NCBI RefSeq assembly: GCF_013315695.1
Contig: NZ_CP054353.1
Reading direction: 5' to 3' (one strand)
DNA: 64,000 nucleotides
Source: Escherichia coli
GTDB taxonomy: Bacteria; Pseudomonadota; Gammaproteobacteria; Enterobacterales; Enterobacteriaceae
Below, piece after piece: positions 21,369 through 50,915 of the stretch. The notes beneath the pieces were generated by a model. It worked only from the letters and a program-made list of their open reading frames with translations, searched no databases and was not told the DNA's origin. The stretch's first letter is position 1. Every line of letters starts with the position of its first letter. The position numbers were made by a program, and so were the translations under genes.

Positions 21369-21952
21369 GTTAGTCTCTCCGTGTTAATTGACTTGCCTAA
21401 AATTCAGGACCTCTGGAGGCAAGCTTAGCGCCTCTGTTTTATTTTTCCATCAGATAGCGCCTAACTGAACAAGGCTTGTGCATGAGCAATACCGTCTCTC
21501 GCCAGCTGCAAGGCAATAAACCACATAACACATCCCACTACCAGATTGATAATGCGTTGTGATTTTGCCGTGCGCAGGCGCGGTGCCAGCCAGGCTGCGA
21601 GAATAGCCAGACCAAAGAACCACAGGAAAGAGGCGCTAATTGTCCCGAGCGCAAACCAACGTTTTGGTTCCACATCAAGTTGCCCACCAAGGCTGCCCAG
21701 TACAACAAAAGTATCCAGGTAAACATGCGGATTCAGCCAGGTCACTGCCAGCATGGTGGCGATAATTTTCCATCTGCCTTGCTTCAGGACTTCGGCACTG
21801 GCTAACTCAATATTGCTGCTCATCGCTGTTTTAAAAGCGCCAAAACCATACCACAGCAAGAAGGCTACGCCGCCCCAGGTGACCAGCGCCAGCAACCACG
21901 GCGACTGCATCAATAACGCGCTGCCACCAAAAATCCCGGCGCAAATCAGGAC

Positions 21953-21961
21953 CAAATCGCT
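21953..21961. repeat. 9-bp target-site duplication (caaatcgct), left flank of IS1 copy 1
   Basis: Identical 9-mer at 22730-22738 immediately after the IS1 right end. Confidence 0.9.
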
Positions 21962-22016
21962 GGTGATGCTGCCAACTTACTGATTTAGTGTATGATGGTG
22001 TTTTTGAGGTGCTCCA

Positions 22017-22292
22017 GTGGCTTCTGTTTCTATCAGCTGTCCCTCCTGTTCAGCTACTGACGGGGTGGTGCGTAACGGCAAAAGCACCGCCGGACATCAG
22101 CGCTATCTCTGCTCTCACTGCCGTAAAACATGGCAACTGCAGTTCACTTACACCGCTTCTCAACCCGGTACGCACCAGAAAATCATTGATATGGCCATGA
22201 ATGGCGTTGGATGCCGGGCAACAGCCCGCATTATGGGCGTTGGCCTCAACACGATTTTACGTCACTTAAAAAACTCAGGCCGCAGTCGGTAA
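22017..22292 (+). CDS. insA: IS1 InsA (91 aa)
   Basis: GTG start; [43 protein letters not shown]... Confidence 0.95.
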
Positions 22293-22714
22293 CCTCGCGC
22301 ATACAGCCGGGCAGTGACGTCATCGTCTGCGCGGAAATGGACGAACAGTGGGGCTATGTCGGGGCTAAATCGCGCCAGCGCTGGCTGTTTTACGCGTATG
22401 ACAGGCTCCGGAAGACGGTTGTTGCGCACGTATTCGGTGAACGCACTATGGCGACGCTGGGGCGTCTTATGAGCCTGCTGTCACCCTTTGACGTGGTGAT
22501 ATGGATGACGGATGGCTGGCCGCTGTATGAATCCCGCCTGAAGGGAAAGCTGCACGTAATCAGCAAGCGATATACGCAGCGAATTGAGCGGCATAACCTG
22601 AATCTGAGGCAGCACCTGGCACGGCTGGGACGGAAGTCGCTGTCGTTCTCAAAATCGGTGGAGCTGCATGACAAAGTCATCGGGCATTATCTGAACATAA
22701 AACACTATCAATAA
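22211..22714 (+). CDS. insB: IS1 InsB reading frame (167 aa; expressed as InsAB fusion by -1 frameshift)
   Basis: Product ...[50 protein letters not shown]... Confidence 0.9.
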
Positions 22715-22729
22715 GTTGGAGTCATTACC

Positions 22730-22738
22730 CAAATCGCT
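22730..22738. repeat. 9-bp target-site duplication (caaatcgct), right flank of IS1 copy 1
   Basis: Matches 21953-21961. Confidence 0.9.
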
Positions 22739-22975
22739 GATAGCGCAAAGTAAGGCAATCATAATGTGGTACTGACGACGAATGCCCTGATTCATCACAA
22801 AAGCATTTTGTGGACCGAGCGGTAGGATCATAGCTGCGCCAAGCGCAAGACCTTGAAAGTAATAAGAAAACACGTTGGATATTCCGAATTAAGTATCTGA
22901 TGCAGAGACTATATCGCGGGATTGTTATTAGCGGAAATTGATAATATTAATTGGCAATCAGAAAAACTAATAAGA

Positions 22976-31037: not shown

Positions 31038-31722
31038 CGGTCATCATTAAGGTCAAATTTGCAGGCAGACTCTCTTCCAGCACCCGGCGAACATTCGGCC
31101 CGTCGGTACGGTCATAAAAGGCTTCTGCGTCTGCCAGCGATAACCCTCCCGCCAGCTTGCGCCCCACCAGACGCTCCCGCAACGCAGATGCGGGAGCTTT
31201 GATAAAGATCGAGAAATCACAAAATTGCGCAAGCTGGCGCCACTTCTCGTCGTCCAGCAACAACCAGTTTCCTTCGACGATGACGAGTGGTGCGGTAACG
31301 TGCAACGCATCTTCAACAGGATCATGCTTTTGTCGATCGTACTGCGGCCACGTACAATCCCCTTCCACCACCTGGCGCAGATTTTCCGCCAGTTTCGCAA
31401 CGTCAAATGTCTCTGGTGCGCCTTTGAAGGGGCGCAATTGATGCGCGTCCAGCCAGCTATTGTAATGGTGAAAACCATCCATCGGGAGCGTCTGAATAGC
31501 GGGCAGCTCCGGGTCTTGTTGCGCGAGATATTCCCAGAAGGTGGTTAGGGTAGATTTACCCGTCCCCGGCGGAGCGCAAAGAAAAACCACCGTACGCCGC
31601 TGCGGATTTACCGTCTGTAAGGCCGCCAGCATACGCAGCAACGGTTTATGCACGCGTTCTATCTCTTCATCATGGTACTGTGCCTGTATCTTCAGCCCAT
31701 TCACCGTTAATTCAATTTTCAC
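31009..31722 (-). CDS. yggC: P-loop nucleoside/nucleotide kinase family protein YggC (237 aa)
   Basis: Product with P-loop CAPPGTGKSTL; position between epd and yggD. Confidence 0.9.
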   Translation of the reverse strand: MKIELTVNGLKIQAQYHDEEIERVHKPLLRMLAALQTVNPQRRTVVFLCAPPGTGKSTLTTFWEYLAQQDPELPAIQTLPMDGFHHYNSWLDAHQLRPFKGAPETFDVAKLAENLRQVVEGDCTWPQYDRQKHDPVEDALHVTAPLVIVEGNWLLLDDEKWRQLAQFCDFSIFIKAPASALRERLVGRKLAGGLSLADAEAFYDRTDGPNVRRVLEESLPANLTLMMTATGEYRLMD

Positions 31723-32228
31723 GGCGTTAATTCCTTTAAGGTGGTCGTTACTGCCAGCGTCAGCGCCGTTTTGACCATCCCGCTAAAACGCGCCTCTGAC
31801 CAGACGGCGAAATCGGCGAACTTCATCGCTTTCAACGCGTCATAGAGCGTCGCATTGCGGGTTATGCTATTGACGTTGCTGATAAAATCCCAGGTCATAT
31901 CATCAGCAAATCCGGGCGTTTCATCCTGTTCGTTCAGGTAATGCCAGAACTGGGAAAAATGCGTGATATCGGCGTACAGCCATTTATCCATTTTCCCCAG
32001 CGCATAAATCAAACGCAGTGCAACATCAATATCGTCAAGCGGGCCGCTTTGGGCGAGTAACGGCTTCACTGCATATTCGACGATCTCTTCATCGTTATCG
32101 ACAAACAGCGACGGCAGAAACTGGCGTATCCCCTGGAGCAAAATAGAATGCGCAGTATTCATAAATGAAAATAAATTGTCCTGTGCATCCAGTTGCTCAA
32201 GCACATCATCTTCTGTCAGCGTCGCCAT
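31719..32228 (-). CDS. yggD: MtlR/FumE-family protein YggD (169 aa)
   Basis: ORF product MATLTEDDVLEQLDAQDNLFSFMNTAHSILLQGIRQF... Confidence 0.9.
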   Translation of the reverse strand: MATLTEDDVLEQLDAQDNLFSFMNTAHSILLQGIRQFLPSLFVDNDEEIVEYAVKPLLAQSGPLDDIDVALRLIYALGKMDKWLYADITHFSQFWHYLNEQDETPGFADDMTWDFISNVNSITRNATLYDALKAMKFADFAVWSEARFSGMVKTALTLAVTTTLKELTP

Positions 32229-35892: not shown

Positions 35893-36243
35893 AATATTAT
35901 CCTGTAGAGGAGAGAGTAATTATCCGCGGCTGATAATGTCCGCTAATTGTTTTTCTGATGATGCTGTTAAGAGTTGTTCGAGTATTTCTTCTTCGCACAG
36001 TAATTCACTTAACGCCTGAATAGCGCCAATGTGCGAATCGGCATCGGCAGCAGAGAGTCCGATGAGTAATTTAATTGGTTCGTCATTCCCCTGAAAATAA
36101 ACACCTTGTTCAAGTAATGTCAAAGACATCCCGGTTTTAAGCGCCCCACATTCCGGTCGCGCATGAGGCATTGCCACGCCTGGTGCGAGAATATAATAAG
36201 GGCCATTGTTAATGGTGGAATCTTTAATTGCCTGAATGTAATT

Positions 36244-36252
36244 CTCGCTGAT
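36244..36252. repeat. 9-bp target-site duplication (ctcgctgat), left flank of IS1 copy 2
   Basis: Identical 9-mer at 37021-37029. Confidence 0.9.
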
Positions 36253-36307: not shown

Positions 36308-36583
36308 GTGGCTTCTGTTTCTATCAGCTGTCCCTCCTGTTCAGCTACTGACGGGGTGGTGCGTAACGGCAAAAGCACCGCCGGACATCAGCGCTATCTC
36401 TGCTCTCACTGCCGTAAAACATGGCAACTGCAGTTCACTTACACCGCTTCTCAACCCGGTACGCACCAGAAAATCATTGATATGGCCATGAATGGCGTTG
36501 GATGCCGGGCAACAGCCCGCATTATGGGCGTTGGCCTCAACACGATTTTACGTCACTTAAAAAACTCAGGCCGCAGTCGGTAA
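36308..36583 (+). CDS. insA: IS1 InsA (91 aa)
   Basis: Translation identical to the 22017-22292 product. Confidence 0.95.
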
Positions 36584-37005
36584 CCTCGCGCATACAGCCG
36601 GGCAGTGACGTCATCGTCTGCGCGGAAATGGACGAACAGTGGGGCTATGTCGGGGCTAAATCGCGCCAGCGCTGGCTGTTTTACGCGTATGACAGGCTCC
36701 GGAAGACGGTTGTTGCGCACGTATTCGGTGAACGCACTATGGCGACGCTGGGGCGTCTTATGAGCCTGCTGTCACCCTTTGACGTGGTGATATGGATGAC
36801 GGATGGCTGGCCGCTGTATGAATCCCGCCTGAAGGGAAAGCTGCACGTAATCAGCAAGCGATATACGCAGCGAATTGAGCGGCATAACCTGAATCTGAGG
36901 CAGCACCTGGCACGGCTGGGACGGAAGTCGCTGTCGTTCTCAAAATCGGTGGAGCTGCATGACAAAGTCATCGGGCATTATCTGAACATAAAACACTATC
37001 AATAA
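36502..37005 (+). CDS. insB: IS1 InsB reading frame (167 aa)
   Basis: Translation identical to the 22211-22714 product. Confidence 0.9.
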
Positions 37006-37517: not shown

Positions 37518-38426
37518 ATGAAAGCACCTGTTTCATTAACCTCATTTCGCCCACAAAAATCTCTTGCTATCGCCATTGGCGTGCTTGCCGTGGTTGTGCT
37601 GCCATTTCTCTCGTATTACACCGTTAATGAAGGTGAACGCGGCATTTTGCTGCGCTACGGAAAAATCGTAAAAGTTGCCGAGCCGGGTCTGGGTTTTAAG
37701 ATCCCGTTTATGGAAAGCGTGGAGAAAATTTCCACGCGTAATCAGGCTGTGGTCTATCAGGGATTACAGGCCTACAGCCGCGACCAGCAACCGGCACAAA
37801 TGACAGTATCAGTCAGCTTCCACATTAAACCTTCAGAAGCAGGCGCGGTTTATACCACCTACAACACCATTGAAGCATTAAAAGATCGTCTGATTGTCCG
37901 TCAGTTGCCAACTCAACTGGAGAACGTTTTCGGCCAATATACCGCCATCAGCGCTGTACAGGATCGTACAAAACTGGTTCAGGATCTGCAAAATGCCATG
38001 CGCAAAGCCGTTGTTGGGCCAGTGGTAATTGACGGGGTCCAGATTGAAAATATTGATTTTTCTGACGCTTATGAAAAGTCGATTGAAGACCGAATGAAAG
38101 CAGAAGTCGCCATTGCCACGCGTAAGCAAAATCTGGAAACAGAGAAAATCCAGGCGCAAATAGCGGTAACTCAGGCCCAGGCAGAAGCAGACAGTAAACT
38201 GGCGGCAGCTAAAGCAGAAGCGGAAACTATTCGCGTAAGAGGCGCGGCAGAGGCTGAAACTATTCGTTTAAAAAGTGCGGCTGAAGCAGAAGCGATCCGC
38301 CTGCGCGGTGAAGCTCTGCGGGATAATCCCGGACTTGTAGCCCTCACCACTGCCGAACGTTGGGACGGTAAACTGCCCGATACCATGATCCCCGGCAGCA
38401 CAGTTCCGTTTATCTCTACTAAGTAA
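37518..38426 (+). CDS. SPFH/band-7 (HflC-like) membrane protein with C-terminal Ala/Glu-rich repeat region (302 aa)
   Basis: N-terminal TM helix then YTVNEGERGILLRYGKIVKVAEPGLGFKIPFMESVEKISTRNQ, paralleling the HflC N-terminal SPFH signature. Confidence 0.8.
   Translation: MKAPVSLTSFRPQKSLAIAIGVLAVVVLPFLSYYTVNEGERGILLRYGKIVKVAEPGLGFKIPFMESVEKISTRNQAVVYQGLQAYSRDQQPAQMTVSVSFHIKPSEAGAVYTTYNTIEALKDRLIVRQLPTQLENVFGQYTAISAVQDRTKLVQDLQNAMRKAVVGPVVIDGVQIENIDFSDAYEKSIEDRMKAEVAIATRKQNLETEKIQAQIAVTQAQAEADSKLAAAKAEAETIRVRGAAEAETIRLKSAAEAEAIRLRGEALRDNPGLVALTTAERWDGKLPDTMIPGSTVPFISTK
38214..38312 (+). repeat. Three imperfect tandem 33-nt repeats inside the SPFH gene
   Basis: Units encode AEAETIRVRGA / AEAETIRLKSA / AEAEAIRLRGE. 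Confidence 0.7.
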
Positions 38427-40463: not shown

Positions 40464-40739
40464 TTTGACTCCAGATCGGATGATGAAGGGCACGCCCTTA
40501 ACGACTTGACGACAGCGCGTTTTGGGCTACGCCGGAAAATTTGCCAACAATTTACCGCAAGCCGCGCGTCATGTACATGGAACATCCTTTTGCCGCTTCA
40601 GAAATCTCTGGATCATGCTCGCATGTTGCGCAATCTGCTCGCCCGTCCGCTGCGCTTTTCCTTATACTGAGACTGAGCGTCGATTCACCTGCAAACGGCG
40701 CATTTTAGAATAATCCTGACCTTGTGCGGAAGAGAAAAC

Positions 40740-41498
40740 ATGAAAATTCGCGCCTTATTGGTAGCAATGAGCGTGGCAACGGTACTGACCGGTTGCCAGA
40801 ATATGGACTCCAACGGACTGCTCTCATCAGGAGCGGAAGCTTTTCAGGCTTACAGTTTGAGTGATGCGCAGGTGAAAACCCTGAGCGATCAGGCATGTCA
40901 GGAGATGGACAGCAAGGCGACGATTGCGCCAACCAATAGCGAATACGCTAAACGTCTGACAACTATTGCCAATGCGCTAGGCAACAATATCAACGGTCAG
41001 CCGGTGAATTACAAAGTGTATATGGCGAAGGATGTGAACGCCTTTGCAATGGCTAACGGCTGTATCCGCGTCTATAGCGGGCTGATGGATATGATGACAG
41101 ATAACGAAGTCGAAGCGGTGATCGGTCACGAGATGGGGCACGTAGCGTTAGGCCATGTGAAGAAAGGGATGCAGGTGGCACTTGGTACAAATGCCGTACG
41201 AGTAGCTGCGGCCTCTGCGGGCGGGATTGTCGGCAGTTTATCTCAATCACAACTCGGTGATCTGGGCGAGAAATTAGTTAATTCGCAATTCTCCCAGCGC
41301 CAGGAAGCAGAAGCCGATGATTATTCTTACGATCTTCTGCGCCAACGCGGCATCAGCCCGGCAGGTCTTGCCACCAGCTTTGAAAAACTGGCAAAACTGG
41401 AAGGAGGCCGTCAAAGCTCAATGTTTGACGACCATCCAGCATCCGCCGAACGCGCCCAGCATATTCGCGATCGTATGAGCGCGGATGGGATAAAGTAA
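40740..41498 (+). CDS. loiP: Outer-membrane metalloprotease lipoprotein LoiP/YggG (252 aa)
   Basis: Start MKIRALLVAMSVATVLTGCQNMD...; HEMGH zinc motif. Confidence 0.95.
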   Translation: MKIRALLVAMSVATVLTGCQNMDSNGLLSSGAEAFQAYSLSDAQVKTLSDQACQEMDSKATIAPTNSEYAKRLTTIANALGNNINGQPVNYKVYMAKDVNAFAMANGCIRVYSGLMDMMTDNEVEAVIGHEMGHVALGHVKKGMQVALGTNAVRVAAASAGGIVGSLSQSQLGDLGEKLVNSQFSQRQEAEADDYSYDLLRQRGISPAGLATSFEKLAKLEGGRQSSMFDDHPASAERAQHIRDRMSADGIK

Positions 41499-41507
41499 GT
41501 CAGACAT

Positions 41508-41536
41508 ACCGATCTACAACATAATTGTAGGTCGGT
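41508..41536. terminator. Hairpin between convergent loiP and the aldolase gene (possible bidirectional terminator, no clear U-tract)
   Basis: Inverted repeat accgatctacaa cataa ttgtaggtcggt. Confidence 0.3.
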
Positions 41537-41553
41537 AACGCCTGAATCCCCGA

Positions 41554-42306
41554 TCAGAGTAGTGATTTCACTTTATTTAGCAAAACGGCTACATCATCCG
41601 GTCGGGTATATCCCGTATCAGGGTCTATAATCGAGCTGTAAACATGTGGCATAATGCGCGGCACCCCCGCCTCCAGACAAGTTTTCAGAATCACACTGAA
41701 GTTATCCAAATCAATCCCGCCAGTCGGCTCAATCAGCGTCATACCATTGCGCGCCGCCGTGGTCGCCAGCGCGTATAGCTCCGGAAGCGACCTCTCGCCG
41801 CCCATCGGAAAGAACTTCGCCGCGTGTGCGCCCATATCTAGCATCATTCGCACCGCCGTATCGCAGGAGACGCGGGCTGGCGTACCCTGGCTGCTGCTAA
41901 CGCCGGTGGAAATCAGCACTTCGCCCGGCGTCCCCGTCGGGCTAACCAGCGCGTTGACATGGGTCTGCTCACCGCCCGTAGCCGCAAGCGCGCCTGCCGC
42001 GAACCCACAACCGGTAAAGGTCTGGTTAACGTGTGCTGGATGAATCTGCGCCGCAATCATCGCAGCTTTGTAATACTGCGCCGGGTCACCCGCCCCCAGA
42101 CCTACTGAAATGGACGGTATTTCCGCCATCCAACGTTTAACTTCCTGGATCCCCTCATCCACCGAGGAGAACTGCGCGGAAAGCACGCCAATCACTGCGT
42201 GGCCTTCGGCGGCGTCAAAGATTTCACGGGCATTGGCGATATCTTTCGCCAGCACATTAATTGCCACACGATTACGATAGAAATTAATCTTTTGCATGAT
42301 CTGCAA
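41554..42306 (-). CDS. KDPG-aldolase-family protein, DgaF-like (250 aa)
   Basis: Eda-like active-site context GAHAAKFFPMGG; last gene of the PTS operon. Confidence 0.75.
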   Translation of the reverse strand: MQIMQKINFYRNRVAINVLAKDIANAREIFDAAEGHAVIGVLSAQFSSVDEGIQEVKRWMAEIPSISVGLGAGDPAQYYKAAMIAAQIHPAHVNQTFTGCGFAAGALAATGGEQTHVNALVSPTGTPGEVLISTGVSSSQGTPARVSCDTAVRMMLDMGAHAAKFFPMGGERSLPELYALATTAARNGMTLIEPTGGIDLDNFSVILKTCLEAGVPRIMPHVYSSIIDPDTGYTRPDDVAVLLNKVKSLL

Positions 42307-43393
42307 TCTCCTTCAGTCGCGCCACGATAAGTGCCATTTCCCCTTCCGCCACCGTACGCGGATCAAGGCTAAAAACGCCCTGGTGGAGGTTATACCGCCG
42401 TGCATAAATCGCGATATCGCCACCACGCAGTTGCGCTTCGACGACGCGAGCGTCAACTCCCAATTCCTGCGCATTTACTCGAATACGAATACGCCAGATT
42501 GCACGCCCGGCTTCATCCTGCTCAATATCAGCCGTTAACCCGTGAATCGCAGAAATCGCTTCAACCACTGGCTGGAGCTGTTCCGCGGTGATGACTGCCT
42601 GCCCCTGGTGATAATTCTCCAGCGCGTAAACCAGCCCAACCATGTTCTCCTTGCCGATTTTCATCGCCTTGGCAATGCCGTGATGCTGCGCTTTGCAGGC
42701 TGCAATCCAGATTTTTTTACCAGTGATAAACCCGGAGGTCGGCGCGTTAAAGGCTTTTGCGCCGCTGTAGACCACCATATCCGCTCCACTCACCACCCAG
42801 GCACGTAAATCCTCTTCGGCGGCGGCATCGACAATCAGCGGCAGGTTGTACATCTGCGCGACATGTGCGAAGTCCTCGATGTTCAACATTCCCTTCTGCA
42901 CGCAGTGATGCGACTTCACATACAGCAGCGCGGCGGTCGCGTCGGTAATGGCACTCTCCAGCTGCCAGAGAGCCGCCAGGTTACTTGAACCCACCTCCAC
43001 AACGCGCCCGCCACCTAAGCGGATCGCGCTGAGGATCGATGCGCCGTAATCGACGTTATGGCCGCGCAGCATCACCACTTCATTGGCCATGCCGGAGCTA
43101 TCCGGCATGAGCGCCACCCGGGCCTTGTCGCCGCGGGTAATGGCGGCGGCGACAGCGATGGCGATCCCTGCTGAGGCACAGGAGGTAACGTAGCTATCCT
43201 CCGCCCCGGTAAAGCGAGAGACCAGCTCGCCGGTTTTGTCCACCAGCTGGTCAATCTCCACGAAAGAGGATGCCGCGCGCGCGGTGGCCTGCATCACCTC
43301 CAGCGCGACGCTGGAGACGCCGAGAATCGTCATCTTGCCGCAGGCGTTAATCACCTGTTTCAGTCCCAGTTGTTGATAGATATTCTGCGTCAT
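42284..43393 (-). CDS. SelA-like PLP-dependent enzyme, DgaE-like (369 aa)
   Basis: Product MTQNIYQQLGLKQVINACGKMTILGVSSVALEVMQA... resembles the SelA/DgaE fold family. Confidence 0.75.
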   Translation of the reverse strand: MTQNIYQQLGLKQVINACGKMTILGVSSVALEVMQATARAASSFVEIDQLVDKTGELVSRFTGAEDSYVTSCASAGIAIAVAAAITRGDKARVALMPDSSGMANEVVMLRGHNVDYGASILSAIRLGGGRVVEVGSSNLAALWQLESAITDATAALLYVKSHHCVQKGMLNIEDFAHVAQMYNLPLIVDAAAEEDLRAWVVSGADMVVYSGAKAFNAPTSGFITGKKIWIAACKAQHHGIAKAMKIGKENMVGLVYALENYHQGQAVITAEQLQPVVEAISAIHGLTADIEQDEAGRAIWRIRIRVNAQELGVDARVVEAQLRGGDIAIYARRYNLHQGVFSLDPRTVAEGEMALIVARLKEIADHAKD

Positions 43394-43396
43394 GGC

Positions 43397-44254
43397 TTAC
43401 AGCACTCCCAGCAGCGAGCAGACCACGCTCAACGCCACAATCGACAGCAGAATCGTGGTGTAACGCGGACCCTTTTTCACCAAATAGAAGTAGATGGCGA
43501 ACACTGCCGCCAGCGGCAGCAGGCCGGGCGCGATGGAGTCCAGAATCTGCTGTACCACCACTTCAGAGCCTTTCAGTGCGCTAATTTTTAAAGGTGAGGT
43601 TATCTTGACAAAGCTCGCGGATAGCGCGCCCATCATGATAAGCCCCAGTACATTAGCGCCGTAGATAAGCTCCTTGATGCGCCCCCCCTGCAGCAGGCTG
43701 ATAATCGAATCGCGCCCCAGCGTATAGCCCTTGTGCACCATGCCGTAGCTGATTGCCAGCGTAATCGCCGGGTAGAGAATCAGCGGCAAAATACCGCCCA
43801 TCGCGCTGCCATTGGCGGCGAACGGGATAAAAATAGCAATCAACAGCGGCATCACGGCCGCCCAGATGATGGAGTCGCCCATTCCGGCCAGCGGCCCCAT
43901 CAGGCCGGTTTTAATCCCGGTGATAGAGGCATCGTTAATCGCCTCGCCGCGGGTCTTTTGCTCTTCCATGGCGATGGAGATCCCTTGGATCACCGCGCCA
44001 AACGTCTGCTCTGAGTTGAAGAAGTTCAGATGGCGTTTTAACGCCTCCACCTGCTCCTCCTTTTGCGGATAGAGCTTTTTAATAATCGGCGTCATCGAGG
44101 CGCAGAAAATCAGGCTCTGTAAACGCTCATATGAGCTGGAAACTTCCGCGCCAAGCCAGTAGATAAACCACGCTTTGGTGATATCCGCTTTGGTCAGCGC
44201 CCCGGACTCCCGCGCGCGCTCCACCAGTTCATGCTGCATTACGTCGCCGCTCAT
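43397..44254 (-). CDS. PTS mannose-family EIID component (285 aa)
   Basis: Membrane protein typical of ManZ-type IID. Confidence 0.85.
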   Translation of the reverse strand: MSGDVMQHELVERARESGALTKADITKAWFIYWLGAEVSSSYERLQSLIFCASMTPIIKKLYPQKEEQVEALKRHLNFFNSEQTFGAVIQGISIAMEEQKTRGEAINDASITGIKTGLMGPLAGMGDSIIWAAVMPLLIAIFIPFAANGSAMGGILPLILYPAITLAISYGMVHKGYTLGRDSIISLLQGGRIKELIYGANVLGLIMMGALSASFVKITSPLKISALKGSEVVVQQILDSIAPGLLPLAAVFAIYFYLVKKGPRYTTILLSIVALSVVCSLLGVL

Positions 44255-45003
44255 TATGCCGCTCCTTCATTTTTCGCCAGGCCTTTAATCAGGAAGGCCA
44301 CGCAGGTGCCGAAAATCGCCATCGCCATGATGTCCACCTTGAGGTACAGCACCGCGAAGAATCCGCCGATAAACCACGGCAGTAGGCTCTTTTTACCAAT
44401 CACCATAATGGTGATGGCGAAGCCCAGCGCCGGGAGAATCCCGCCCATGATTTCAAACGAGTGGGTCAGCCAGTGCGGCATCAGCTTGAGGAAACTTTCC
44501 ACTACGTTCTGGCCGAAGTAGTTGGCGGCGAACACCACTGGGAAACGTAGCACCAGCCCCAGCAGCGCCGGGTAGAGAAAGGCGCAGCGCATAATGGCTG
44601 ATATATTGGCCGTTTCCGCGTGTTTATCGGCCATATGCACCCAGGCCGCATTTAGCGTGCGACGCAACTGGTCGAGGAATACGCCGATAACGCCAAATGG
44701 AATCGCCAGTGCAATCGCCAGGTTCGGGTCCATATTGGCCTTAACGGCGATAGGAATGGCGATACAGGCCGCCAGCGCCGGGTCTGACGGCACATTGCCG
44801 CCTGGCGTTGAGGTCACACCCAGATATACCAACTGCATCCCCGCGCCGATAATCATCGCCGCAGGCATGTTGCCGAGCAGCAGGCCGACAAAGACTGCCA
44901 CCACCACTGGCTGTAACAGCATGGCGGAGAAGGTATAGCCAAGGCGCAACCGGGCAAACCAGTAATACAGCCCCATCAGGCTTGCAAAAAGTAAGGTATC
45001 CAT
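44254..45003 (-). CDS. PTS mannose-family EIIC component (249 aa)
   Basis: Polytopic membrane protein MDTLLFASLMGLYYWFARLRLGYTF... Confidence 0.85.
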   Translation of the reverse strand: MDTLLFASLMGLYYWFARLRLGYTFSAMLLQPVVVAVFVGLLLGNMPAAMIIGAGMQLVYLGVTSTPGGNVPSDPALAACIAIPIAVKANMDPNLAIALAIPFGVIGVFLDQLRRTLNAAWVHMADKHAETANISAIMRCAFLYPALLGLVLRFPVVFAANYFGQNVVESFLKLMPHWLTHSFEIMGGILPALGFAITIMVIGKKSLLPWFIGGFFAVLYLKVDIMAMAIFGTCVAFLIKGLAKNEGAA

Positions 45004-45028
45004 AATTTGTTATCCCATGTTCAGAGGG

Positions 45029-45514
45029 TCAGAATTTTTTCAGGATATCGTCCAGCGACTGCGGCTTATCTTCCGGGATGGTCTGGAAAACAGCCTTAAT
45101 GCCGCGACTTTTCAAATCGTTAAGAATGCCAACGTCTTTTTCATCCAGAGTTATGTTCTGGAACACCGCTTTACGGTTTGGCCCGCCGCCTAAGCCGCCA
45201 ACCTGAATATCAGCCACGTCAAAGCCCTGCTGCACCGCTTCCTGAATCGCCGCCAGCGACGGGAACAGCACCAGCACGTTGCCGTCGCCCAGCTGGTTCT
45301 CTTTCCACGCGGCCGCGAAGCTCTGGTTGCTGAAGCAGTCCACTTTGATATTCGGCGGCGCGGCCATCAGGTAGATATTTTTCATAAACGGATCGGCGTC
45401 CAGCTCGTCGCTGACCACCGCAATACGGTTGGCCTGGGATTGCCCCACCCACTTCGTCACCACCTGTCCGTGGATAAGACGGCTGTCAATGCGACATAAC
45501 ACGATGTTTGCCAT
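45029..45514 (-). CDS. PTS mannose-family EIIB component (161 aa)
   Basis: MANIVLCRIDSRLIHGQVVTKWVG..., the ManX IIB-domain signature with phosphorylatable His. Confidence 0.85.
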   Translation of the reverse strand: MANIVLCRIDSRLIHGQVVTKWVGQSQANRIAVVSDELDADPFMKNIYLMAAPPNIKVDCFSNQSFAAAWKENQLGDGNVLVLFPSLAAIQEAVQQGFDVADIQVGGLGGGPNRKAVFQNITLDEKDVGILNDLKSRGIKAVFQTIPEDKPQSLDDILKKF

Positions 45515-45524
45515 ACGATTTTCC

Positions 45525-45953
45525 TTACTGTTGTAATTGACGAATATGGGAGACGACGTCCAGGCAACTGTTGCGCCCAGCTTCCACCAGATCGGCCACG
45601 CAGGCGGTCAGTGGGCCATGTTCGCGCTTGTCCAGCGCCTCCAGCAGCAGCGAGGCATTAAGCCCGGAGATCACCGCCACCGGATAATCGGCGCTCAGCC
45701 GCGCCGCCACGTTAGAGGTGGTGCCGCCGATAAAATCGGTCACGATAAGAGAACCTTCTGGCATGGTTTTCACCACGGCTTCGACGCGCTGGTAAAACTC
45801 GCCCAGCGTATCGACAGGCATCAGCGCGATTTCCGTCACGCCTTCGATTTCGCCCATCACCATGCGCAGACTGTTGCAGAGCTGCAGCCCCCAGCCGCCG
45901 TGAGTTAGCAGCAGAATTTCAGGTAACGGATGAATAGGTACAGTTGTGGTCAA
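45525..45953 (-). CDS. PTS mannose-family EIIA component (142 aa), TTG start
   Basis: Product MTTTVPIHPLPEILLLTHGGWG...; RBS aaggagg 5 nt upstream of TTG. Confidence 0.8.
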   Translation of the reverse strand: MTTTVPIHPLPEILLLTHGGWGLQLCNSLRMVMGEIEGVTEIALMPVDTLGEFYQRVEAVVKTMPEGSLIVTDFIGGTTSNVAARLSADYPVAVISGLNASLLLEALDKREHGPLTACVADLVEAGRNSCLDVVSHIRQLQQ

Positions 45954-45992
45954 AATAGCCTCCTTTGCTCCAGTGTTTACATTTCATCAGGA

Positions 45993-46007
45993 GCAAAGGA
46001 CGTGCCA
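45993..46007 (-). promoter_or_regulatory. Sigma-54 (RpoN) -24/-12 promoter driving the PTS operon
   Basis: Minus strand reads TGGCAC-GTCCT-TTGC (perfect GG-N10-GC spacing) about 40 bp upstream of the EIIA start, downstream of the sigma-54 activator gene. Confidence 0.7.
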
Positions 46008-46071
46008 GAATTTGTGTCACGCACAGAGGAAATGAGATTGGATGGGGCGTTAAGCCCCGTAAACCAGGGGA

Positions 46072-48870
46072 TCAGCTGTAGAGCAGTTCGTAGATATAAA
46101 AATATTCTGCGTCCGATAAACGGATAGCGTAAGCCTCTTCAATCGGCAAAAAGGAGGATTTGATGACGCTAAAGGCACGAGCGTCCAGATCAAGCCGGTT
46201 TTCTAGCGCCATCTGTAACGGTTTGCGGTTAATCACGATACGCTCGACCATGCAGCAGCAGTGGATCAGAAAACGTAGTGTCACCTGGCGGCTCGGTTTC
46301 AGGGAGAGCGTGTTGGTTAAGTGGTTCAGAACGTCCTCGATCTCTTTCAGAATTCGCTGCGGGTTGAGCACCGAAATATGGTTGATGATGCTCTCCATGG
46401 TCAGCGCGCTGATAAAACGCATGGCGCTGCGCTCCATCTCCAGTCGGCGCTCGCTGCTTGAGAGATCCGGCGTCAGCAGGCTGAGCACCAGCTCTGGCCC
46501 TTGCTCGGAAAACAGTTCCTCCAGCGAGATAAACGGTATATCCGGCAGTCCCGGCTGGAAGGTGCCGACGATCCCTGCCAGCCGTTCACTGGCATTAAGC
46601 GCCTGCTGAATACGCTCCAGGCTGCGCACCTCGTTATAGTCGAGAATCACCATACGCGTGTCCTGCGACATCAGCTCGCCAAAGCTCTCCTCCAGCACCT
46701 TTTTGATCTTTTCCGCCGTCCCCATTCCGGTTATACATGAGATAACCAGCACTTTGCCACCGCTCTCTTGCTGCGGCGTGCAGAGCCGACAAGGGATATT
46801 TTTACTCTGCATAAGCACAGCCAATTGCGATAGATCGCCAGTTTCGTAGCTTAAATCCAGCCCCACCTCCAGCAGGCTGGTCAGAGTGATATTTGGCAAC
46901 AACAGAACGTCAATCTGGAACAGCTTGCTGATGGTGCTGCCAAAATGGACCAGCGATCCGATATCCACCATCAGTATCAGCCGCTGCCAGCACCGGTCCT
47001 GAATCATCCGGGTCAGGGTTTCCAGGGTGTCATGCACCGACTGCTCAAATGGCATATCAATTGCGTAGAACAGATCGCGCTCCAGCACCCGATTCACATA
47101 TTGCGCCTGGCTCGTTGCGGTGGTCGCACCGTGAGCGATTAGAATCACGCCGCAATCCGGGCTGGTGTCGATGCGCTGGCGGTAGTGGCGACACTCTTTC
47201 AGGAACAGGCACAGCCAGACCACCTCCGTCGCCGGGCACTGAATATGCAACAACTCATTGATTTTGCGGCACAGAAGTGTCGCATTGTCATACTCATCTT
47301 TACAGCGATCCAGAATCAGGCTGGATGAATAGAGTTGAGGTATAAGCCCTCGCCGCACATAGCCAATCAGCGCAAGAAAGTGTTTACGTAACGGGTTCGC
47401 CAGGTTTTCTGGCAATGTAAATCCTAATACCTGCTCCACGTAACCGATCAGCAGCGTCACACGCTCCTCAATTTGATCGCCATAGCGCGGTGGATGCGCC
47501 GCACTATGGCGGCTATAAAGACCATATTCAAAAATCGAACTGAGTTTGTTTTTCAGGATAGCCAGCGTTTCTGCGGGCGGCACGTTACTGTTGCGCAGAT
47601 TGACATATTCACGAGTCAGGAAACTGTAAAACAGGTCGCTCTCTTCTATTTCCGCGCTGGTCGCCAACGAATTTTTTAACGCGGGCAACGTACGCGCATC
47701 CACGTTCAGACGATCTTTACCACCAAACAACGCATCGACCAGCAGACGCTGCTCTGGCGTGGTATTAAACGACATCTCCGCCAGTCGTTTATCTAACTCT
47801 AGCGTATCATTACGCTCGGTCATTCCCGACGCCCACGCCTGCGCGCACAAGAACTGAATATCACTTTTAAGCTGGCCGATATTGCCTTCCAGGGATTTAC
47901 TTAACAACCAATGCAAGAGCGTTTTATCAAGGCTTATGGTACGTTCAATTTTACGACTTTCACGCTGAAAGAAGCTTACAATCAATTCGAGCTGCTCCTC
48001 GACCGAACGCTGGCGAATACCCGGTAAGTCAATACATACCTGGATACGCCGCTGGAAGGTACGCAATAGTGCCGAGTTGACCGACTCTGTAGTGGCGCAA
48101 ATAAGGCGCACCGAAATTGAATATGTTGGCCCACTTGAACCAAGTGGGCGGTATTCACCTTTATCGAGAATAGAAAAGAGCTTCTCTTGTCCTTCGTACG
48201 GGAGGCGATGCACTTCATCCAGAAGTAAATAGCCTCCGTCAGCTTGCTCCACCAATCCCGTTTTATTCTCACTTGCCCCGGTAAATGCCCCCTTATGGTG
48301 ACCAAACAGATGTGAGGAAAGCAACTCCGGATTATGAGCATATTCGGCACAGTTAAAGTAAACCAACGGAGGTAGCGAACCTATGGTGTGCTTGCAAGCG
48401 AAGCAATGCATTAACTCAGCAAAGAATGTTTTGCCAACACCAGATGCCCCGGTTAACAGCACATGTAGTCCGTGGGGATAGAGCACCGCTGCGCGGCCTT
48501 TTTCTACCGCATCACGGAGACTACGGTCGTATCCGATAAGTCCGGAAAACGGATCATCATCTGTATATTTTTCTTTCTTTGGCAATAAACTAGCCACTGA
48601 ATGAACTATGCATTCGCAATCATCCAGTTTTCGATTAATGAGCAATTCTAGTGCGTGACGATGTAGAAAAAAAACAGGACGTCCCTGACTTTTTACCACC
48701 AGGCCTTCATTCCATAATTGATTAAGATCTTTACTAACCGAGTTGCGTGCCAGCCCAAGGTTAAAACCAATCGCCTCAGCAGTAAATGCTTTCTCCTTCG
48801 CTAAATCAGACAGTTCCAGCCCATACGTCAGCCGCTCCAGCTCCTTGTGAATAACATCAATCCGTCTCAT
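46072..48870 (-). CDS. Sigma-54-dependent LevR/DgaR-like activator with AAA+ and PRD/EIIA-type regulatory domains (about 932 aa)
   Basis: Walker A GASGVGKT, GAFTGA motif (HHKGAFTGAS); first ATG (MRRIDVIHKE...) chosen, GTG 14 codons upstream also possible. Confidence 0.85.
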   Translation of the reverse strand: MRRIDVIHKELERLTYGLELSDLAKEKAFTAEAIGFNLGLARNSVSKDLNQLWNEGLVVKSQGRPVFFLHRHALELLINRKLDDCECIVHSVASLLPKKEKYTDDDPFSGLIGYDRSLRDAVEKGRAAVLYPHGLHVLLTGASGVGKTFFAELMHCFACKHTIGSLPPLVYFNCAEYAHNPELLSSHLFGHHKGAFTGASENKTGLVEQADGGYLLLDEVHRLPYEGQEKLFSILDKGEYRPLGSSGPTYSISVRLICATTESVNSALLRTFQRRIQVCIDLPGIRQRSVEEQLELIVSFFQRESRKIERTISLDKTLLHWLLSKSLEGNIGQLKSDIQFLCAQAWASGMTERNDTLELDKRLAEMSFNTTPEQRLLVDALFGGKDRLNVDARTLPALKNSLATSAEIEESDLFYSFLTREYVNLRNSNVPPAETLAILKNKLSSIFEYGLYSRHSAAHPPRYGDQIEERVTLLIGYVEQVLGFTLPENLANPLRKHFLALIGYVRRGLIPQLYSSSLILDRCKDEYDNATLLCRKINELLHIQCPATEVVWLCLFLKECRHYRQRIDTSPDCGVILIAHGATTATSQAQYVNRVLERDLFYAIDMPFEQSVHDTLETLTRMIQDRCWQRLILMVDIGSLVHFGSTISKLFQIDVLLLPNITLTSLLEVGLDLSYETGDLSQLAVLMQSKNIPCRLCTPQQESGGKVLVISCITGMGTAEKIKKVLEESFGELMSQDTRMVILDYNEVRSLERIQQALNASERLAGIVGTFQPGLPDIPFISLEELFSEQGPELVLSLLTPDLSSSERRLEMERSAMRFISALTMESIINHISVLNPQRILKEIEDVLNHLTNTLSLKPSRQVTLRFLIHCCCMVERIVINRKPLQMALENRLDLDARAFSVIKSSFLPIEEAYAIRLSDAEYFYIYELLYS

Positions 48871-49087
48871 TTCTTTACCGCTTAAAAAACAATAGTTGTT
48901 CAGAACATACACTATTTGTAAACGTAAGAATGAGAACTACCGGGAAGAATTAATGTTCCTTGTGGCAATCTGGTTTCTGAATATTCGTGTTTTAAATATT
49001 ACTTATGGTCTGAAACAACCAGGCAGGTGAACAGAGCTAAGAAAAAGTCGCGTAGAAATATAAAAACATATATCGCACTGATGAATG

Positions 49088-49116
49088 TTTCCCGGCATGA
49101 CATACACACCGGGAAA
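49088..49116 (-). terminator. Hairpin downstream of speB (possible terminator, weak U-tract)
   Basis: tttcccgg catgacatacaca ccgggaaa inverted repeat just past speB stop. Confidence 0.3.
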
Positions 49117-49127
49117 TATTTAGTAAA

Positions 49128-50048
49128 TTACTCGCCCTTTTTCGCCGCCTGAATATACAGCATTTCCAGCGCCAGCGTCGCCGCAGCCAGAGCGGTGATT
49201 TCCGACTGATCGTATGCCGGAGCCACTTCCACTACGTCCATCCCAACAATGTTGAGATCTTTCAGGCCGCGTACCAGTTTAATAGCGCGATCGGAGGTCA
49301 GGCCGCCAATTACTGGCGTACCGGTTCCCGGCGCGAAAGCAGGATCCAGGCAGTCGATATCAAAGGTCAGGTAAACCGGCATATCACCTACAATCTGTTT
49401 CACCTGAGCGATAACGTCATCCACGCTGCGATCGTTCACCTGGCAGGCGTCCAGCACGGTAAAACCGTTGTCTTTATCAAACTCGGTACGAATACCAATC
49501 TGCACGGAATGATTCGGGTCGATCAGACCTTCTTTCGGCGCGGTATAGAACATGGTGCCGTGGTCAAATTCACAACCGTTCGCATAGGTGTCGGTGTGGG
49601 CGTCAAAGTGTACCAGCGCCATTTTGCCGAAATGCTTCGCATGAGCACGCAGCAGCGGCAGCGTAACAAAGTGGTCACCACCGAAGGAGAGCATACGCTT
49701 ACCGGCAGCCAGCAGCTTCTCGGCGTGCGCCTGCAGCTTCTCGCTCATCTCACGGGCATCGCCGAAGGCATATACCAGATCGCCGCAGTCCACGACGTTC
49801 AGGCGCTCACGCATGTCGAAATTCCACGGGAAGCGATTGTGTTCCCAGGCCAGATTCGTCGAAACCTGACGGATCGCTGCCGGACCGTGGCGACCACCCG
49901 CACGACCAGAAGTGGCCATATCGAACGGCACGCCAGTAATCACCCAGTCAGCATCGCTGTCATATGGCTGGAAGTTCATCGGCAGGCGTAAAAAACCAAA
50001 GGCGTTGGAAACCAGTGAGTTATCGTATTGATGACCTAAGGTGCTCAT
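49128..50048 (-). CDS. speB: Agmatinase (306 aa)
   Basis: ORF product [45 protein letters not shown]... Confidence 0.97.
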
Positions 50049-50183: not shown

Positions 50184-50915
50184 CTATTTCCGACACGGTG
50201 GCGGCGCATAGCCATTGTTGTCCGCCGGAAAGGCTTGTCCAGAGCACGGCGGCAGCGCGTTTTGCGCCGGGCCTTGTAATTCAAAGGCGGCAAAGCCGAT
50301 TACACCGGTATTACGCACATCGCCTTGCGCCGAATTGGCTGCGTAGGAATCAGCAACGTTGGCGAACTGAAAAGCCGCTTCGGTATGTTTATCTTTGCGG
50401 AATCCTTTAATCGCTAACGAATCTCCGGCATTCACAATATAGCCGTTGTTATTCAGCGAACCTTGCTTGCCGTTCAGCACATCCAGGCCATCAACCGTAG
50501 CAACGATCTCGTAGTTGGTATTACGACTGTAATTGCGGACATATAATTGATAATTCATTCCTACTCTGGCATGGACAATATAGCGTGGTTCATTATTGGA
50601 TGAATCATAAACCCGCGTAATAGGTAGAGAATTAAAATTACCATCGCGAATAGCATATTCCAGTTCGTTAATACGAATGCTATAAACGCGGTCGTAGCCC
50701 GAAGGAACAGTAGTCGAATAACTAATAACGATCATCTCTGCCGGATCGCGCCAGGCTCGCTCAGCAGATACGCCCTGAACCGATGAGTGCACATCCCCAC
50801 CCCAGGCGGTGCCGACATTGCCCGATGTACTGCTATTATACTGCGCATTACTGGAACAACCGGCCAGCAGCACGGCTAATGCTATCAACGCGCTACGTAC
50901 TTTCCATTTTTTCAT
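50184..50915 (-). CDS. Lipoprotein of unknown function (243 aa) between speB and speA
   Basis: Signal peptide plus lipobox MKKWKVRSALIALAVLLAGCSS; no family recognised by eye. Confidence 0.7.
   Translation of the reverse strand: MKKWKVRSALIALAVLLAGCSSNAQYNSSTSGNVGTAWGGDVHSSVQGVSAERAWRDPAEMIVISYSTTVPSGYDRVYSIRINELEYAIRDGNFNSLPITRVYDSSNNEPRYIVHARVGMNYQLYVRNYSRNTNYEIVATVDGLDVLNGKQGSLNNNGYIVNAGDSLAIKGFRKDKHTEAAFQFANVADSYAANSAQGDVRNTGVIGFAAFELQGPAQNALPPCSGQAFPADNNGYAPPPCRK

What the first reader, a model, noticed from the sequence alone, without database searches (positions are those of the whole stretch)
41554..48912. Sigma-54/LevR-controlled mannose-family PTS locus resembling Salmonella dgaABCDEF, inserted between loiP and speB
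The seven minus-strand genes are a LevR-type activator (GAFTGA motif), EIIA-EIIB-EIIC-EIID, a SelA-like PLP enzyme and a KDPG-aldolase-like enzyme (KFFP active-site context). This organisation matches the D-glucosaminate utilisation system described in Salmonella and is absent from K-12 at this position as I recall. Substrate identity here is inferred, not shown.
Basis: partly seen in the sequence, partly recalled or inferred. Interest (0 to 1): 0.55.

Follow-up and report, generated by a model that had tools for sequence, protein, structure and literature searches.

The report
Known D-glucosaminate utilisation operon (dgaR-dgaABCDEF)
This is the E. coli copy of the Salmonella gene cluster for importing and breaking down the amino-sugar acid D-glucosaminate; about one in ten complete E. 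coli genomes carry it and standard genome annotation already names it, so it is real but ordinary.

Summary
Seven intact minus-strand genes fill the gap between loiP and speB, which in K-12 is a 205-bp spacer of REP-like repeats.

The interpretation also holds:
- The seven proteins are 84-97% identical to Salmonella DgaR and DgaA-F, in the same order.
- DagR, DgaE and DagF score above NCBI's curated equivalog cut-offs.
- The DgaE catalytic residues H162, H163 and K213 are present.
- DgaR has the GAFTGA motif and a LevR-type layout.
- A perfect sigma-54 promoter, TGGCACGTCCTTTGCT, lies 38 nt upstream of dgaA. It is the only zero-mismatch hit in the 64-kb window and is conserved in every enterobacterial locus examined.

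The locus is not new. PGAP already labels dagR, dgaE and dagF in a record 100% identical over the queried 7.7 kb. 562 of 5,426 complete E. coli genomes carry it as a single chromosomal copy. Published pathway surveys list D-glucosaminate degradation as a marker of the E. coli STc95 lineage.

Small corrections: dgaR most likely starts at 48870, not 48912, and dgaF at 42297.

Substrate use in E. coli remains inferred. The E. coli type strain is reported positive for D-glucosaminic acid on Biolog plates yet lacks the locus.

One side observation may be new. An invariant GTGACAC motif occurs twice upstream of the promoter, once inside the 3' end of dgaR, and could be the unidentified DgaR enhancer.

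The parts
46072..48870 (-). dgaR (dagR): LevR-type sigma-54 enhancer-binding activator, 932 aa
   Evidence: NCBIfam DagR equivalog scores 1523 bits against a cut-off of 1400. It is 88% identical to Salmonella DgaR. Pfam finds Sigma54_activat at residues 112-270 and PRD domains at 475-558 (weak) and 846-930. Residues 572-667 match the EIIA-Man-like domains of PDB 3gx1 and 3gdw. Walker A GASGVGKT is at 141, GAFTGA at 194, and ILIAHG begins at residue 576.
45992..46007 (-). sigma-54 promoter TGGCACGTCCTTTGCT (-24 GG / -12 GC), 38 nt upstream of the dgaA TTG start
   Evidence: It is the only zero-mismatch match to TGGCAC-N5-TTGCW in the 64-kb window. The element is present in all 22 enterobacterial loci examined.
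45525..45953 (-). dgaA: PTS EIIA, mannose family, 142 aa, TTG start after an AGGAGG ribosome-binding site
   Evidence: TIGR00824 EIIA-man hit at E 5.7e-16, below the curated cut-off. 84% identical to Salmonella DgaA, with the TTG start conserved. A THGG motif carries His18.
45029..45514 (-). dgaB: PTS EIIB, mannose family, 161 aa
   Evidence: TIGR00854 hit at E 3.4e-32. 92% identical to Salmonella DgaB. Its single histidine, His15, sits in RLIHGQV.
44254..45003 (-). dgaC: PTS EIIC membrane subunit, 249 aa
   Evidence: EII-Sor and AgaW family hits at about E 4e-38. 96.4% identical to Salmonella DgaC.
43397..44254 (-). dgaD: PTS EIID membrane subunit, 285 aa from the ATG at 44254 (PGAP starts one codon earlier, at 44257, which is ATA here)
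   Evidence: TIGR00828 EIID-AGA hit at E 2.4e-65. 96.9% identical to Salmonella DgaD.
42284..43393 (-). [quoted passage not shown]
   Evidence: NCBIfam DgaE equivalog scores 686.5 bits against a cut-off of 600. It aligns full-length to the Salmonella DGL crystal structure 7lc0 at E 1e-206 and is 86% identical. H162, H163 and K213 are invariant in 25 orthologues. The role of His-163 is taken from PMC9529869.
41554..42297 (-). dgaF (dagF): 2-keto-3-deoxy-6-phosphogluconate aldolase, 247 aa
   Evidence: NCBIfam DagF equivalog scores 350.6 bits against a cut-off of 300. 85% identical to Salmonella DgaF. PDB relatives such as 3nzr hit at about E 4e-68. KFFP is at residues 161-164.
41499..41553 (.). 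dgaF-loiP spacer containing a strong hairpin, probably a two-way terminator for the convergent genes
   Evidence: RNA fold of -25.8 kcal/mol, z-score -5.1, with 0 of 200 shuffles folding as well. The spacer is 100% identical in Escherichia sp. L024.
46044..46058 (-). GC-rich hairpin GGGGCTTAACGCCCC just after the dgaR stop codon
   Evidence: Read directly from the sequence. The aligned orthologous loci have a GC-rich inverted repeat of differing sequence at the same place. Its function was not tested.
46014..46020 (-). Promoter-proximal GTGACAC motif, ending 6 nt upstream of the -24 box
   Evidence: Present in 21 of 22 enterobacterial loci at 11-12 nt upstream of the TGGCAC box. It lies in otherwise poorly conserved non-coding DNA.
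46278..46284 (-). Distal GTGACAC motif inside dgaR codons 863-865, 264 nt upstream of the proximal copy; candidate enhancer half
   Evidence: TGACAC is present in 22 of 22 loci (full GTGACAC in all) at 274-288 nt upstream of TGGCAC. It falls in the region of lowest synonymous-site variation in the whole gene, codons 860-889; 0.65% of permutations gave a minimum as low.
48871..49127 (.). speB-dgaR spacer, presumed to hold the dgaR promoter
   Evidence: It has no counterpart in K-12. It is 97.7% identical in Escherichia sp. L024. No strong sigma-70 match was found there.

Best explanation
The segment 41499-49127 is the E. coli orthologue of the Salmonella dgaR-dgaABCDEF system.

Inferred mechanism, by orthology with the Salmonella work summarised in PMC4987338 and PMC9529869:
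1. DgaA, B, C and D form a mannose-family PTS permease. It takes up D-glucosaminate and phosphorylates it to D-glucosaminate-6-phosphate, with phosphate passing through His18 of DgaA and His15 of DgaB.
2. DgaE, a PLP-dependent enzyme, removes ammonia from this product to give 2-keto-3-deoxy-6-phosphogluconate.
3. DgaF splits that compound into pyruvate and glyceraldehyde-3-phosphate.
4. Transcription of dgaABCDEF starts at a sigma-54 promoter and needs ATP hydrolysis by DgaR.
5. DgaR is switched on through phosphorylation by HPr. It is switched off through phosphorylation by the permease when no substrate is flowing.

What is shown here: the genes, their orthology, the catalytic and phosphorylation motifs, the promoter and the conserved gene order. 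What is inferred: the substrate, sigma-54 (rpoN) dependence and the phosphorylation logic in E. coli.
For: All seven ORFs are intact, in Salmonella order, and 84-97% identical to the Salmonella proteins. The membrane subunits that bind the substrate are the most conserved, at 96-97%.

The equivalog models for DagR, DgaE and DagF are passed. DgaE aligns end to end with the crystallised Salmonella enzyme and keeps H162, H163 and K213.

The sigma-54 promoter is perfect and is conserved in all 22 enterobacterial loci. DgaR has Walker A, GAFTGA, two PRD domains and an EIIA-like domain with a conserved AHG histidine.

PGAP independently names the genes in the record that is 100% identical over the queried 7.7 kb. 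D-glucosaminate degradation (PWY-7310) is already predicted in E. coli STc95 (PMC13001218).
Against: I found no experiment on this locus in E. coli.

The E. coli type strain is reported Biolog-positive for D-glucosaminic acid (PMC4334874) but has no dga genes. That phenotype is therefore not a clean readout of this locus.

The four PTS subunits score below NCBIfam's curated cut-offs for the generic mannose-family models, so they are divergent members of that family.

DgaE residue 226 is Lys here and Arg in Salmonella, where docking placed it near the substrate carboxylate. The position varies among orthologues, and Lys is the commonest residue there.
Confidence: 0.9

Rival explanations
1. The architecture is the same but the substrate differs: the permease and lyase act on another 2-amino-2-deoxy sugar acid or a related amino sugar, not D-glucosaminate.
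For: The substrate was not tested. The PTS subunits fall below the curated cut-offs of the generic mannose-family models. DgaE differs from Salmonella at residue 226, K instead of R. The Biolog D-glucosaminic acid phenotype does not track the locus in the type strain.
Against: The substrate-binding subunits DgaC and DgaD are 96-97% identical to the Salmonella ones. The DgaE and DagF equivalog cut-offs are exceeded. Residue 226 varies among clear orthologues.
Confidence: 0.04
2. The locus is present but silent or decaying in E. coli, a remnant that no longer gives a phenotype.
For: ETEC strain B7A carries the cluster with an internal stop in dagR. 90% of complete E. coli genomes do without it.
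Against: In this window all seven reading frames are full length, with motifs, ribosome-binding site and promoter intact. 558 of the 562 carriers are at least 99% identical over dgaEF. That similarity is compatible with purifying selection or with recent spread and does not separate the two.
Confidence: 0.06
3. On origin only: the cluster was not inserted into this strain. The speB/loiP slot is an old residence of the cluster, most E. coli lineages including K-12 lost it, and REP elements now fill the gap.
For: Cedecea neteri has the cluster in the same slot. It is collinear through both junctions at about 80% DNA identity, close to the 83-85% of the neighbouring speA and speB. Escherichia sp. 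MOD1-EC7003 also has it there. All four E. coli carriers inspected use the same slot (and H2).
Against: G+C is 53-60% across most of the cluster, against 50-53% in adjoining loiP. The dga genes are less diverged between the window and Escherichia sp. (1.6-2.7%) than the flanking core genes (3.7-5.4%), which fits later exchange. Salmonella, Citrobacter, Klebsiella and the other genera lack loiP or speB next to the cluster; in Salmonella it lies beside mgtCB.
Confidence: 0.4

Closest known systems
Salmonella enterica serovar Typhimurium dgaR-dgaABCDEF (STM3773-STM3766), D-glucosaminate PTS and catabolic operon (Miller et al. 2013, as summarised in PMC4987338)
   Same: Seven genes in the same order and on the same strand. 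Proteins are 84-97% identical. The sigma-54 promoter, the dgaA TTG start and ribosome-binding site, and the overlapping dgaC/D and dgaE/F junctions are all shared.
   Different: The chromosomal site differs: loiP/speB here, next to mgtCB in Salmonella. The window lacks the REP-like insert of about 95 bp between promoter and dgaA, and the 145-bp dgaB-dgaC spacer, both seen in Salmonella. Function in E. coli is untested.
Salmonella DGL (DgaE), PDB 7lc0/7lce
   Same: 369 aa, aligned end to end, 86% identical, with H162, H163 and K213 conserved.
   Different: 51 substitutions, including R226K.
LevR-type PRD-containing sigma-54 activators (Bacillus subtilis LevR; Salmonella GfrR)
   Same: A sigma-54 AAA+ core with GAFTGA is followed by PRD1, an EIIA-Man-like domain and a C-terminal PRD2. 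The regulator controls a mannose-family PTS operon.
   Different: DgaR is proteobacterial and only distantly related in sequence. I did not demonstrate the EIIB-Gat-like domain here. The enhancer sequence is unknown; it is listed as NK in PMC4987338.
E. coli aga and man mannose-family PTS systems
   Same: A four-subunit IIA/IIB/IIC/IID permease of the same superfamily.
   Different: Scores are far below the equivalog cut-offs for the Aga and Man proteins, for example AgaW at 131 bits against a cut-off of 300. The partner enzymes and the regulator also differ.

Membership tests
Dga D-glucosaminate utilisation system (Salmonella dgaR-dgaABCDEF) | Seven genes R-A-B-C-D-E-F, co-directional and contiguous | tested here: met
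   The order is identical in the window, in Salmonella L081 and in most of the roughly 35 other enterobacterial loci; a few are cut or lack one gene hit.
Dga D-glucosaminate utilisation system (Salmonella dgaR-dgaABCDEF) | Each protein is orthologous to its Salmonella counterpart | tested here: met
   Global identities are R 88.0, A 84.0, B 91.9, C 96.4, D 96.9, E 86.2 and F 84.6%.
Dga D-glucosaminate utilisation system (Salmonella dgaR-dgaABCDEF) | NCBIfam equivalog models DagR, DgaE and DagF above their curated cut-offs | tested here: met
   1523 bits (cut-off 1400), 686.5 (cut-off 600) and 350.6 (cut-off 300).
Dga D-glucosaminate utilisation system (Salmonella dgaR-dgaABCDEF) | DGL active-site residues: the PLP lysine and His-162/His-163 | tested here: met
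   K213, H162 and H163 are invariant in 25 aligned orthologues, including the window. The role of His-163 comes from PMC9529869.
Dga D-glucosaminate utilisation system (Salmonella dgaR-dgaABCDEF) | Sigma-54 promoter in front of dgaA | tested here: met
   TGGCACGTCCTTTGCT at 45992-46007(-) is the only perfect match in 64 kb and is conserved in all loci examined.
Dga D-glucosaminate utilisation system (Salmonella dgaR-dgaABCDEF) | Growth on D-glucosaminate that depends on the operon, on rpoN and on dgaR | not testable with these tools
   I found no E. coli experiment in the held literature. The type strain's Biolog result conflicts with its genotype.
LevR-type sigma-54 enhancer-binding proteins | Central sigma-54 AAA+ domain with Walker A and GAFTGA | tested here: met
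   PF00158 at E 3.7e-40 over residues 112-270. GASGVGKT at 141 and GAFTGA at 194.
LevR-type sigma-54 enhancer-binding proteins | Two PRD domains C-terminal to the AAA+ domain | tested here: met
   PRD at 846-930 with E 4.4e-8, and PRD at 475-558 with E 0.005, which is weak.
LevR-type sigma-54 enhancer-binding proteins | EIIA-Man-like domain with a phosphorylatable histidine between the PRDs | tested here: met
   Residues 572-667 match PDB 3gx1 (E 6.8e-5) and 3gdw (E 8e-4). The ILIAHG motif beginning at residue 576 is identical in Salmonella. Phosphorylation itself was not tested.
LevR-type sigma-54 enhancer-binding proteins | EIIB-Gat-like domain | not tested
   No Pfam or PDB hit covers residues of about 670-845. 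I made no structure prediction.
LevR-type sigma-54 enhancer-binding proteins | N-terminal DNA-binding helix-turn-helix domain | tested here: inconclusive
   Only weak Pfam hits: TrmB at 22-68 (E 0.0086) and HTH_Crp_2 at 29-75 (E 0.015).
Mannose-family PTS permease | Separate IIA, IIB, IIC and IID subunits with the family's IIA and IIB histidines | tested here: met
   TIGR00824, TIGR00854, TIGR00822 and TIGR00828 hit at E 6e-16 to 2e-65, but all below their curated cut-offs. The Salmonella orthologues carry PF03610, PF03830, PF03609 and PF03613. His18 lies in THGG of DgaA and His15 in RLIHGQ of DgaB.

The most novel reading that the evidence does not exclude
The DgaR enhancer, listed as unknown in the 2016 review of the Salmonella RpoN regulon, may be a pair of invariant GTGACAC elements. 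One ends 6 nt upstream of the -24 box. The other lies about 264 nt further upstream, inside the last 70 codons of dgaR itself. That part of the gene has the lowest synonymous-site variation of the whole gene across 21 Enterobacterales. If so, the activator gene would carry its own target site in its coding sequence.
Probability: 0.25. Interest if true: 0.3.

Novelty: already known. Interest (0 to 1): 0.12.

Why it matters
The finding matters little beyond correct annotation. The locus is a variable metabolic island that lets some E. coli lineages use an amino-sugar acid as carbon and nitrogen source, and published work already lists the pathway as a marker of the extraintestinal pathogenic lineage STc95 (PMC13001218).

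Three small points remain of value. Nobody seems to have shown experimentally that the E. coli copy works, at least in the literature I could search. The type strain's reported D-glucosaminic acid phenotype is not explained by this locus. The conserved GTGACAC pair gives a testable candidate for the unknown DgaR binding site.

Tried and rejected
- **Mobile-element scars.** I looked for flanking direct repeats, inverted repeats, an integrase or a tRNA at the borders. Only short chance-level repeats turned up.
- **Promoter and terminator scans.** Sigma-70 promoter-like and terminator-like sites were no more frequent than in shuffled sequence.
- **Structured RNAs.** Rfam found nothing between 40500 and 50200.
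- **Salmonella locus from the genome scan.** The genome-contig scan did not return Salmonella enterica among its 80 loci. I recovered the locus instead through the exact PDB 7lc0 sequence.
- **Miller et al. 2013.** PMC3754740 is not held in the library, so I took its content second-hand from PMC4987338 and PMC9529869.
- **Phenotype support from the type strain.** I hoped its Biolog result would support the link to the locus. Its genome lacks the locus, so this counts against a simple link, not for it.
- **Divergent second dga copy.** A sensitive blastn search for one in E. coli found none.
- **CRP site.** I considered the promoter-proximal GTGACAC as a CRP site. The second half-site is missing (read), so I rejected this.
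- **Divergence in the flanks.** Window versus K-12 gives about 2-3% next to the island, which is not informative.
Full report
**Observation.** Listing the ORFs shows seven co-directional minus-strand reading frames between loiP (40722-41498, +) and speB (49128-50048, -). NCBIfam gives unambiguous hits for all seven. Three curated equivalog models are exceeded: DagR at 1523 bits (cut-off 1400), DgaE at 686.5 (cut-off 600) and DagF at 350.6 (cut-off 300). The other four proteins hit the IIA, IIB, IIC and IID subfamily models of the mannose PTS family at E 6e-16 to 2e-65, though below those models' curated cut-offs. The DagR model begins at residue 15 of the longest ORF, and all orthologues start MRRI/MKRI. 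dgaR therefore most likely starts at the ATG at 48870, giving 932 aa. dgaF starts at the ATG at 42297, giving 247 aa, in agreement with PGAP. The quoted motifs are present: GAFTGA at DgaR 194-199 and KFFP at DgaF 161-164.

**Absence from K-12 and borders.** In the K-12-type strain J53, loiP and speB are 205 bp apart, and the spacer consists of REP-like repeats. In the window that spacer is replaced, from the base after the loiP stop to the base before the speB stop (41499-49127), by the seven genes. I found no integrase, tRNA, IS element or flanking direct repeat. G+C is 53-60% over most of the cluster and about 50-53% in adjoining loiP. The 55-bp dgaF-loiP spacer folds into a strong hairpin of -25.8 kcal/mol with z -5.1. 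It is probably a shared terminator for the two convergent genes.

[quoted passage not shown] I used that exact sequence to fetch a Salmonella-type locus, L081. It carries the same seven genes with the same Pfam families, next to mgtCB. Global identities are DgaR 88.0%, DgaA 84.0%, DgaB 91.9%, DgaC 96.4%, DgaD 96.9%, DgaE 86.2% and DgaF 84.6%. DNA identity is 79-83%. The residues H162, H163 and K213 of the lyase are invariant in 25 orthologues, including distant Firmicutes and Actinobacteria. PMC9529869 establishes His-163 as the stereospecific proton donor. Residue 226 is Arg in Salmonella, where docking placed it near the substrate carboxylate, and Lys here. The position varies, and Lys is the commonest residue among orthologues.

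**Regulation.** The 118-bp dgaR-dgaA spacer contains TGGCACGTCCTTTGCT at 45992-46007 on the minus strand. This is the only perfect match to the sigma-54 consensus in the 64-kb window. At up to two mismatches the window as a whole shows no excess, with 40 matches against 44 expected. The element sits 38 nt upstream of a TTG start that follows an AGGAGG ribosome-binding site. Promoter, ribosome-binding site and TTG start are conserved in every enterobacterial locus aligned. DgaR has the sigma-54 AAA+ domain (PF00158, E 4e-40) and a strong C-terminal PRD at 846-930. It also has a weaker PRD at 475-558 and, between the two, a stretch at 572-667 that matches the EIIA-Man-like domains of PDB 3gx1 and 3gdw. 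An ILIAHG histidine motif there is identical in Salmonella. This is the LevR-type layout described for DgaR in PMC4987338. In that account HPr phosphorylation activates DgaR and permease phosphorylation inhibits it. I did not demonstrate the EIIB-Gat-like domain, and the N-terminal helix-turn-helix gets only weak hits.

**Is it known?** Yes.
- A megablast of the region finds an E. coli chromosome (MSB1_4I, a human rectal swab isolate) that is 100% identical over the queried 7.7 kb. [quoted passage not shown]
- 562 of 5,426 complete E. coli genomes (10.4%) carry dgaEF. The copy is always single and chromosomal, and 558 of them are at least 99% identical. A sensitive blastn finds no divergent extra copies.
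- Carriers include O111 strains, O91:H21 and ETEC B7A. The four carriers I inspected use the same loiP/speB slot. In B7A dagR has an internal stop.
- A 2026 pathway survey lists D-glucosaminate degradation (PWY-7310) in 100% of STc95, 0% of STc73, STc131 and STc14, and 26% of other B2 strains (PMC13001218).
- A veterinary study counts the D-glucosaminate PTS among E. coli isolates (PMC12115863).

The finding is therefore a correct reading of an already catalogued accessory locus.

**Wider distribution and origin.** A scan of species-representative genomes, followed by tblastn of all seven proteins, finds the full R-A-B-C-D-E-F cluster in many genera. These are Citrobacter, Klebsiella michiganensis, Cedecea, Superficieibacter, Enterobacter, Pantoea, Erwinia, Trabulsiella, Yokenella, Hafnia, Serratia and Rahnella. 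Gut Firmicutes and Actinobacteria have dgaE-dgaF, with or without dgaABCD, and no DgaR. Only Cedecea neteri (L007) and Escherichia sp. MOD1-EC7003 (L024) have the cluster between speB and loiP. Cedecea is collinear with the window through both junctions at about 80% DNA identity, close to the 83-85% of speA and speB. Against Escherichia sp., the dga genes are 97.3-98.4% identical. The flanking speA, loiP and tkt are 94.6-95.0% and speB is 96.3%. These facts do not settle whether the slot is old with repeated loss or whether the cluster moves by recombination in the conserved flanks. 'Inserted' is therefore the one word of the title I would soften.

**Evidence against, and limits.** I found no experiment on the E. 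coli locus. The primary Salmonella paper is not held. The type strain DSM 30083T is reported positive for D-glucosaminic acid on Biolog PM-01, and K-12 negative (PMC4334874). I checked the type strain's complete genome: speB and loiP are 203 bp apart with no dga genes, and no E. coli genome holds a second or divergent copy. Dye reduction on that substrate is thus not a reliable proxy for this locus, or another route exists. This does not weaken the orthology, but it means the substrate claim for E. coli remains inferred.

**Side observation.** The DgaR enhancer is listed as not known (PMC4987338). In the alignment of dgaR-dgaA regions, a GTGACAC motif lies just upstream of the -24 box in 21 of 22 loci, within otherwise variable non-coding DNA. 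A second GTGACAC lies 263-276 nt further upstream, 264 nt in most loci, in 22 of 22. This copy falls inside dgaR codons 863-865, where the Val (GTG) and Thr (ACA) codons never vary. An inverted copy, GTGTCAT, lies between the two in 14 of 22 loci but not in the window.

I measured synonymous-codon entropy across 21 orthologues, corrected per amino acid. It reaches its two lowest values in the whole 932-codon gene at codons 860-871 and 876-889. Only 0.65% of permutations gave a minimum as low as the observed one. In the window GTGACAC occurs 8 times in 64 kb, which is close to chance, but two of those copies fall in this 270-bp stretch. This fits an enhancer partly embedded in the 3' end of dgaR. 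An RNA structure or another overlapping signal could equally explain the constraint. It is a lead only.

**Verdict.** This is a known kind of system, already annotated in this species. Interest is low.

Noticed in passing
window 46014-46020 and 46278-46284 (minus strand); loci L003-L081: An invariant GTGACAC motif occurs twice upstream of the dga sigma-54 promoter, just upstream of the -24 box and about 264 nt further up. The distal copy is inside dgaR codons 863-865. Codons 860-889 have the lowest synonymous variation of the whole gene across 21 orthologues. This could be the unidentified DgaR enhancer.
   Followed up: partly
E. coli type strain NZ_CP033092.2 900378-902260 (locus L086 15378-17260): The type strain ATCC 11775 / DSM 30083T is reported Biolog-positive for D-glucosaminic acid (PMC4334874). 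Yet it has no dga genes: speB and loiP are 203 bp apart. The phenotype is not explained by this locus.
   Followed up: partly
window 50184-50915 (minus strand): A 243-aa predicted lipoprotein gene sits between speB and speA. K-12 lacks it, but the type strain, B7A, EC42405 and Escherichia sp. L024 all have it. It matches no NCBIfam family above threshold, and PGAP calls it hypothetical.
   Followed up: partly
window about 36308-37005 and about 22017-22714: Two IS1A copies interrupt cmtB (remnant at 35920-36252) and argO (pieces within 21461-22873). This comes from the PGAP annotation of NZ_LR898874.1, which is 100% identical over the queried 7.7 kb; window coordinates outside that stretch were extrapolated, not checked. 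The IS1-internal sequence TGGGACGGAAGTCGCT appears at 22626 and 36917.
   Followed up: no
window 31719-32228: fumE is annotated as a pseudogene with an internal stop in the matching record NZ_LR898874.1.
   Followed up: no
window 37518-38426 (plus strand): A prohibitin/HflC-like gene of 302 aa lies between tkt and cmtB. K-12 and B7A lack it. The type strain and EC42405 have it.
   Followed up: no
window 41499-41553: The 55-bp spacer between convergent dgaF and loiP folds into a very stable hairpin (-25.8 kcal/mol, z -5.1). It is 100% conserved in Escherichia sp. L024, although the neighbouring genes differ by 2-5%.
   Followed up: partly
L081 7106-7323 and 8246-8390; L003, L004, L014, L042: Salmonella, Citrobacter, Superficieibacter and Enterobacter carry a REP-like insert of about 95 bp between the sigma-54 promoter and the dgaA ribosome-binding site. 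Salmonella also has a 145-bp dgaB-dgaC spacer. E. coli, Cedecea and Klebsiella michiganensis lack the promoter-proximal insert.
   Followed up: no
L089 12519-15317 (E. coli B7A): In ETEC strain B7A dagR is annotated as a pseudogene with an internal stop, while dgaA-F are intact. This points to lineage-specific decay of the regulator.
   Followed up: no
window 44254-44257: PGAP starts the EIID gene at 44257, where the codon in this sequence is ATA (Salmonella has ATG ATG). The next codon, ATG at 44254, overlaps the dgaC stop and is the more plausible start.
   Followed up: no
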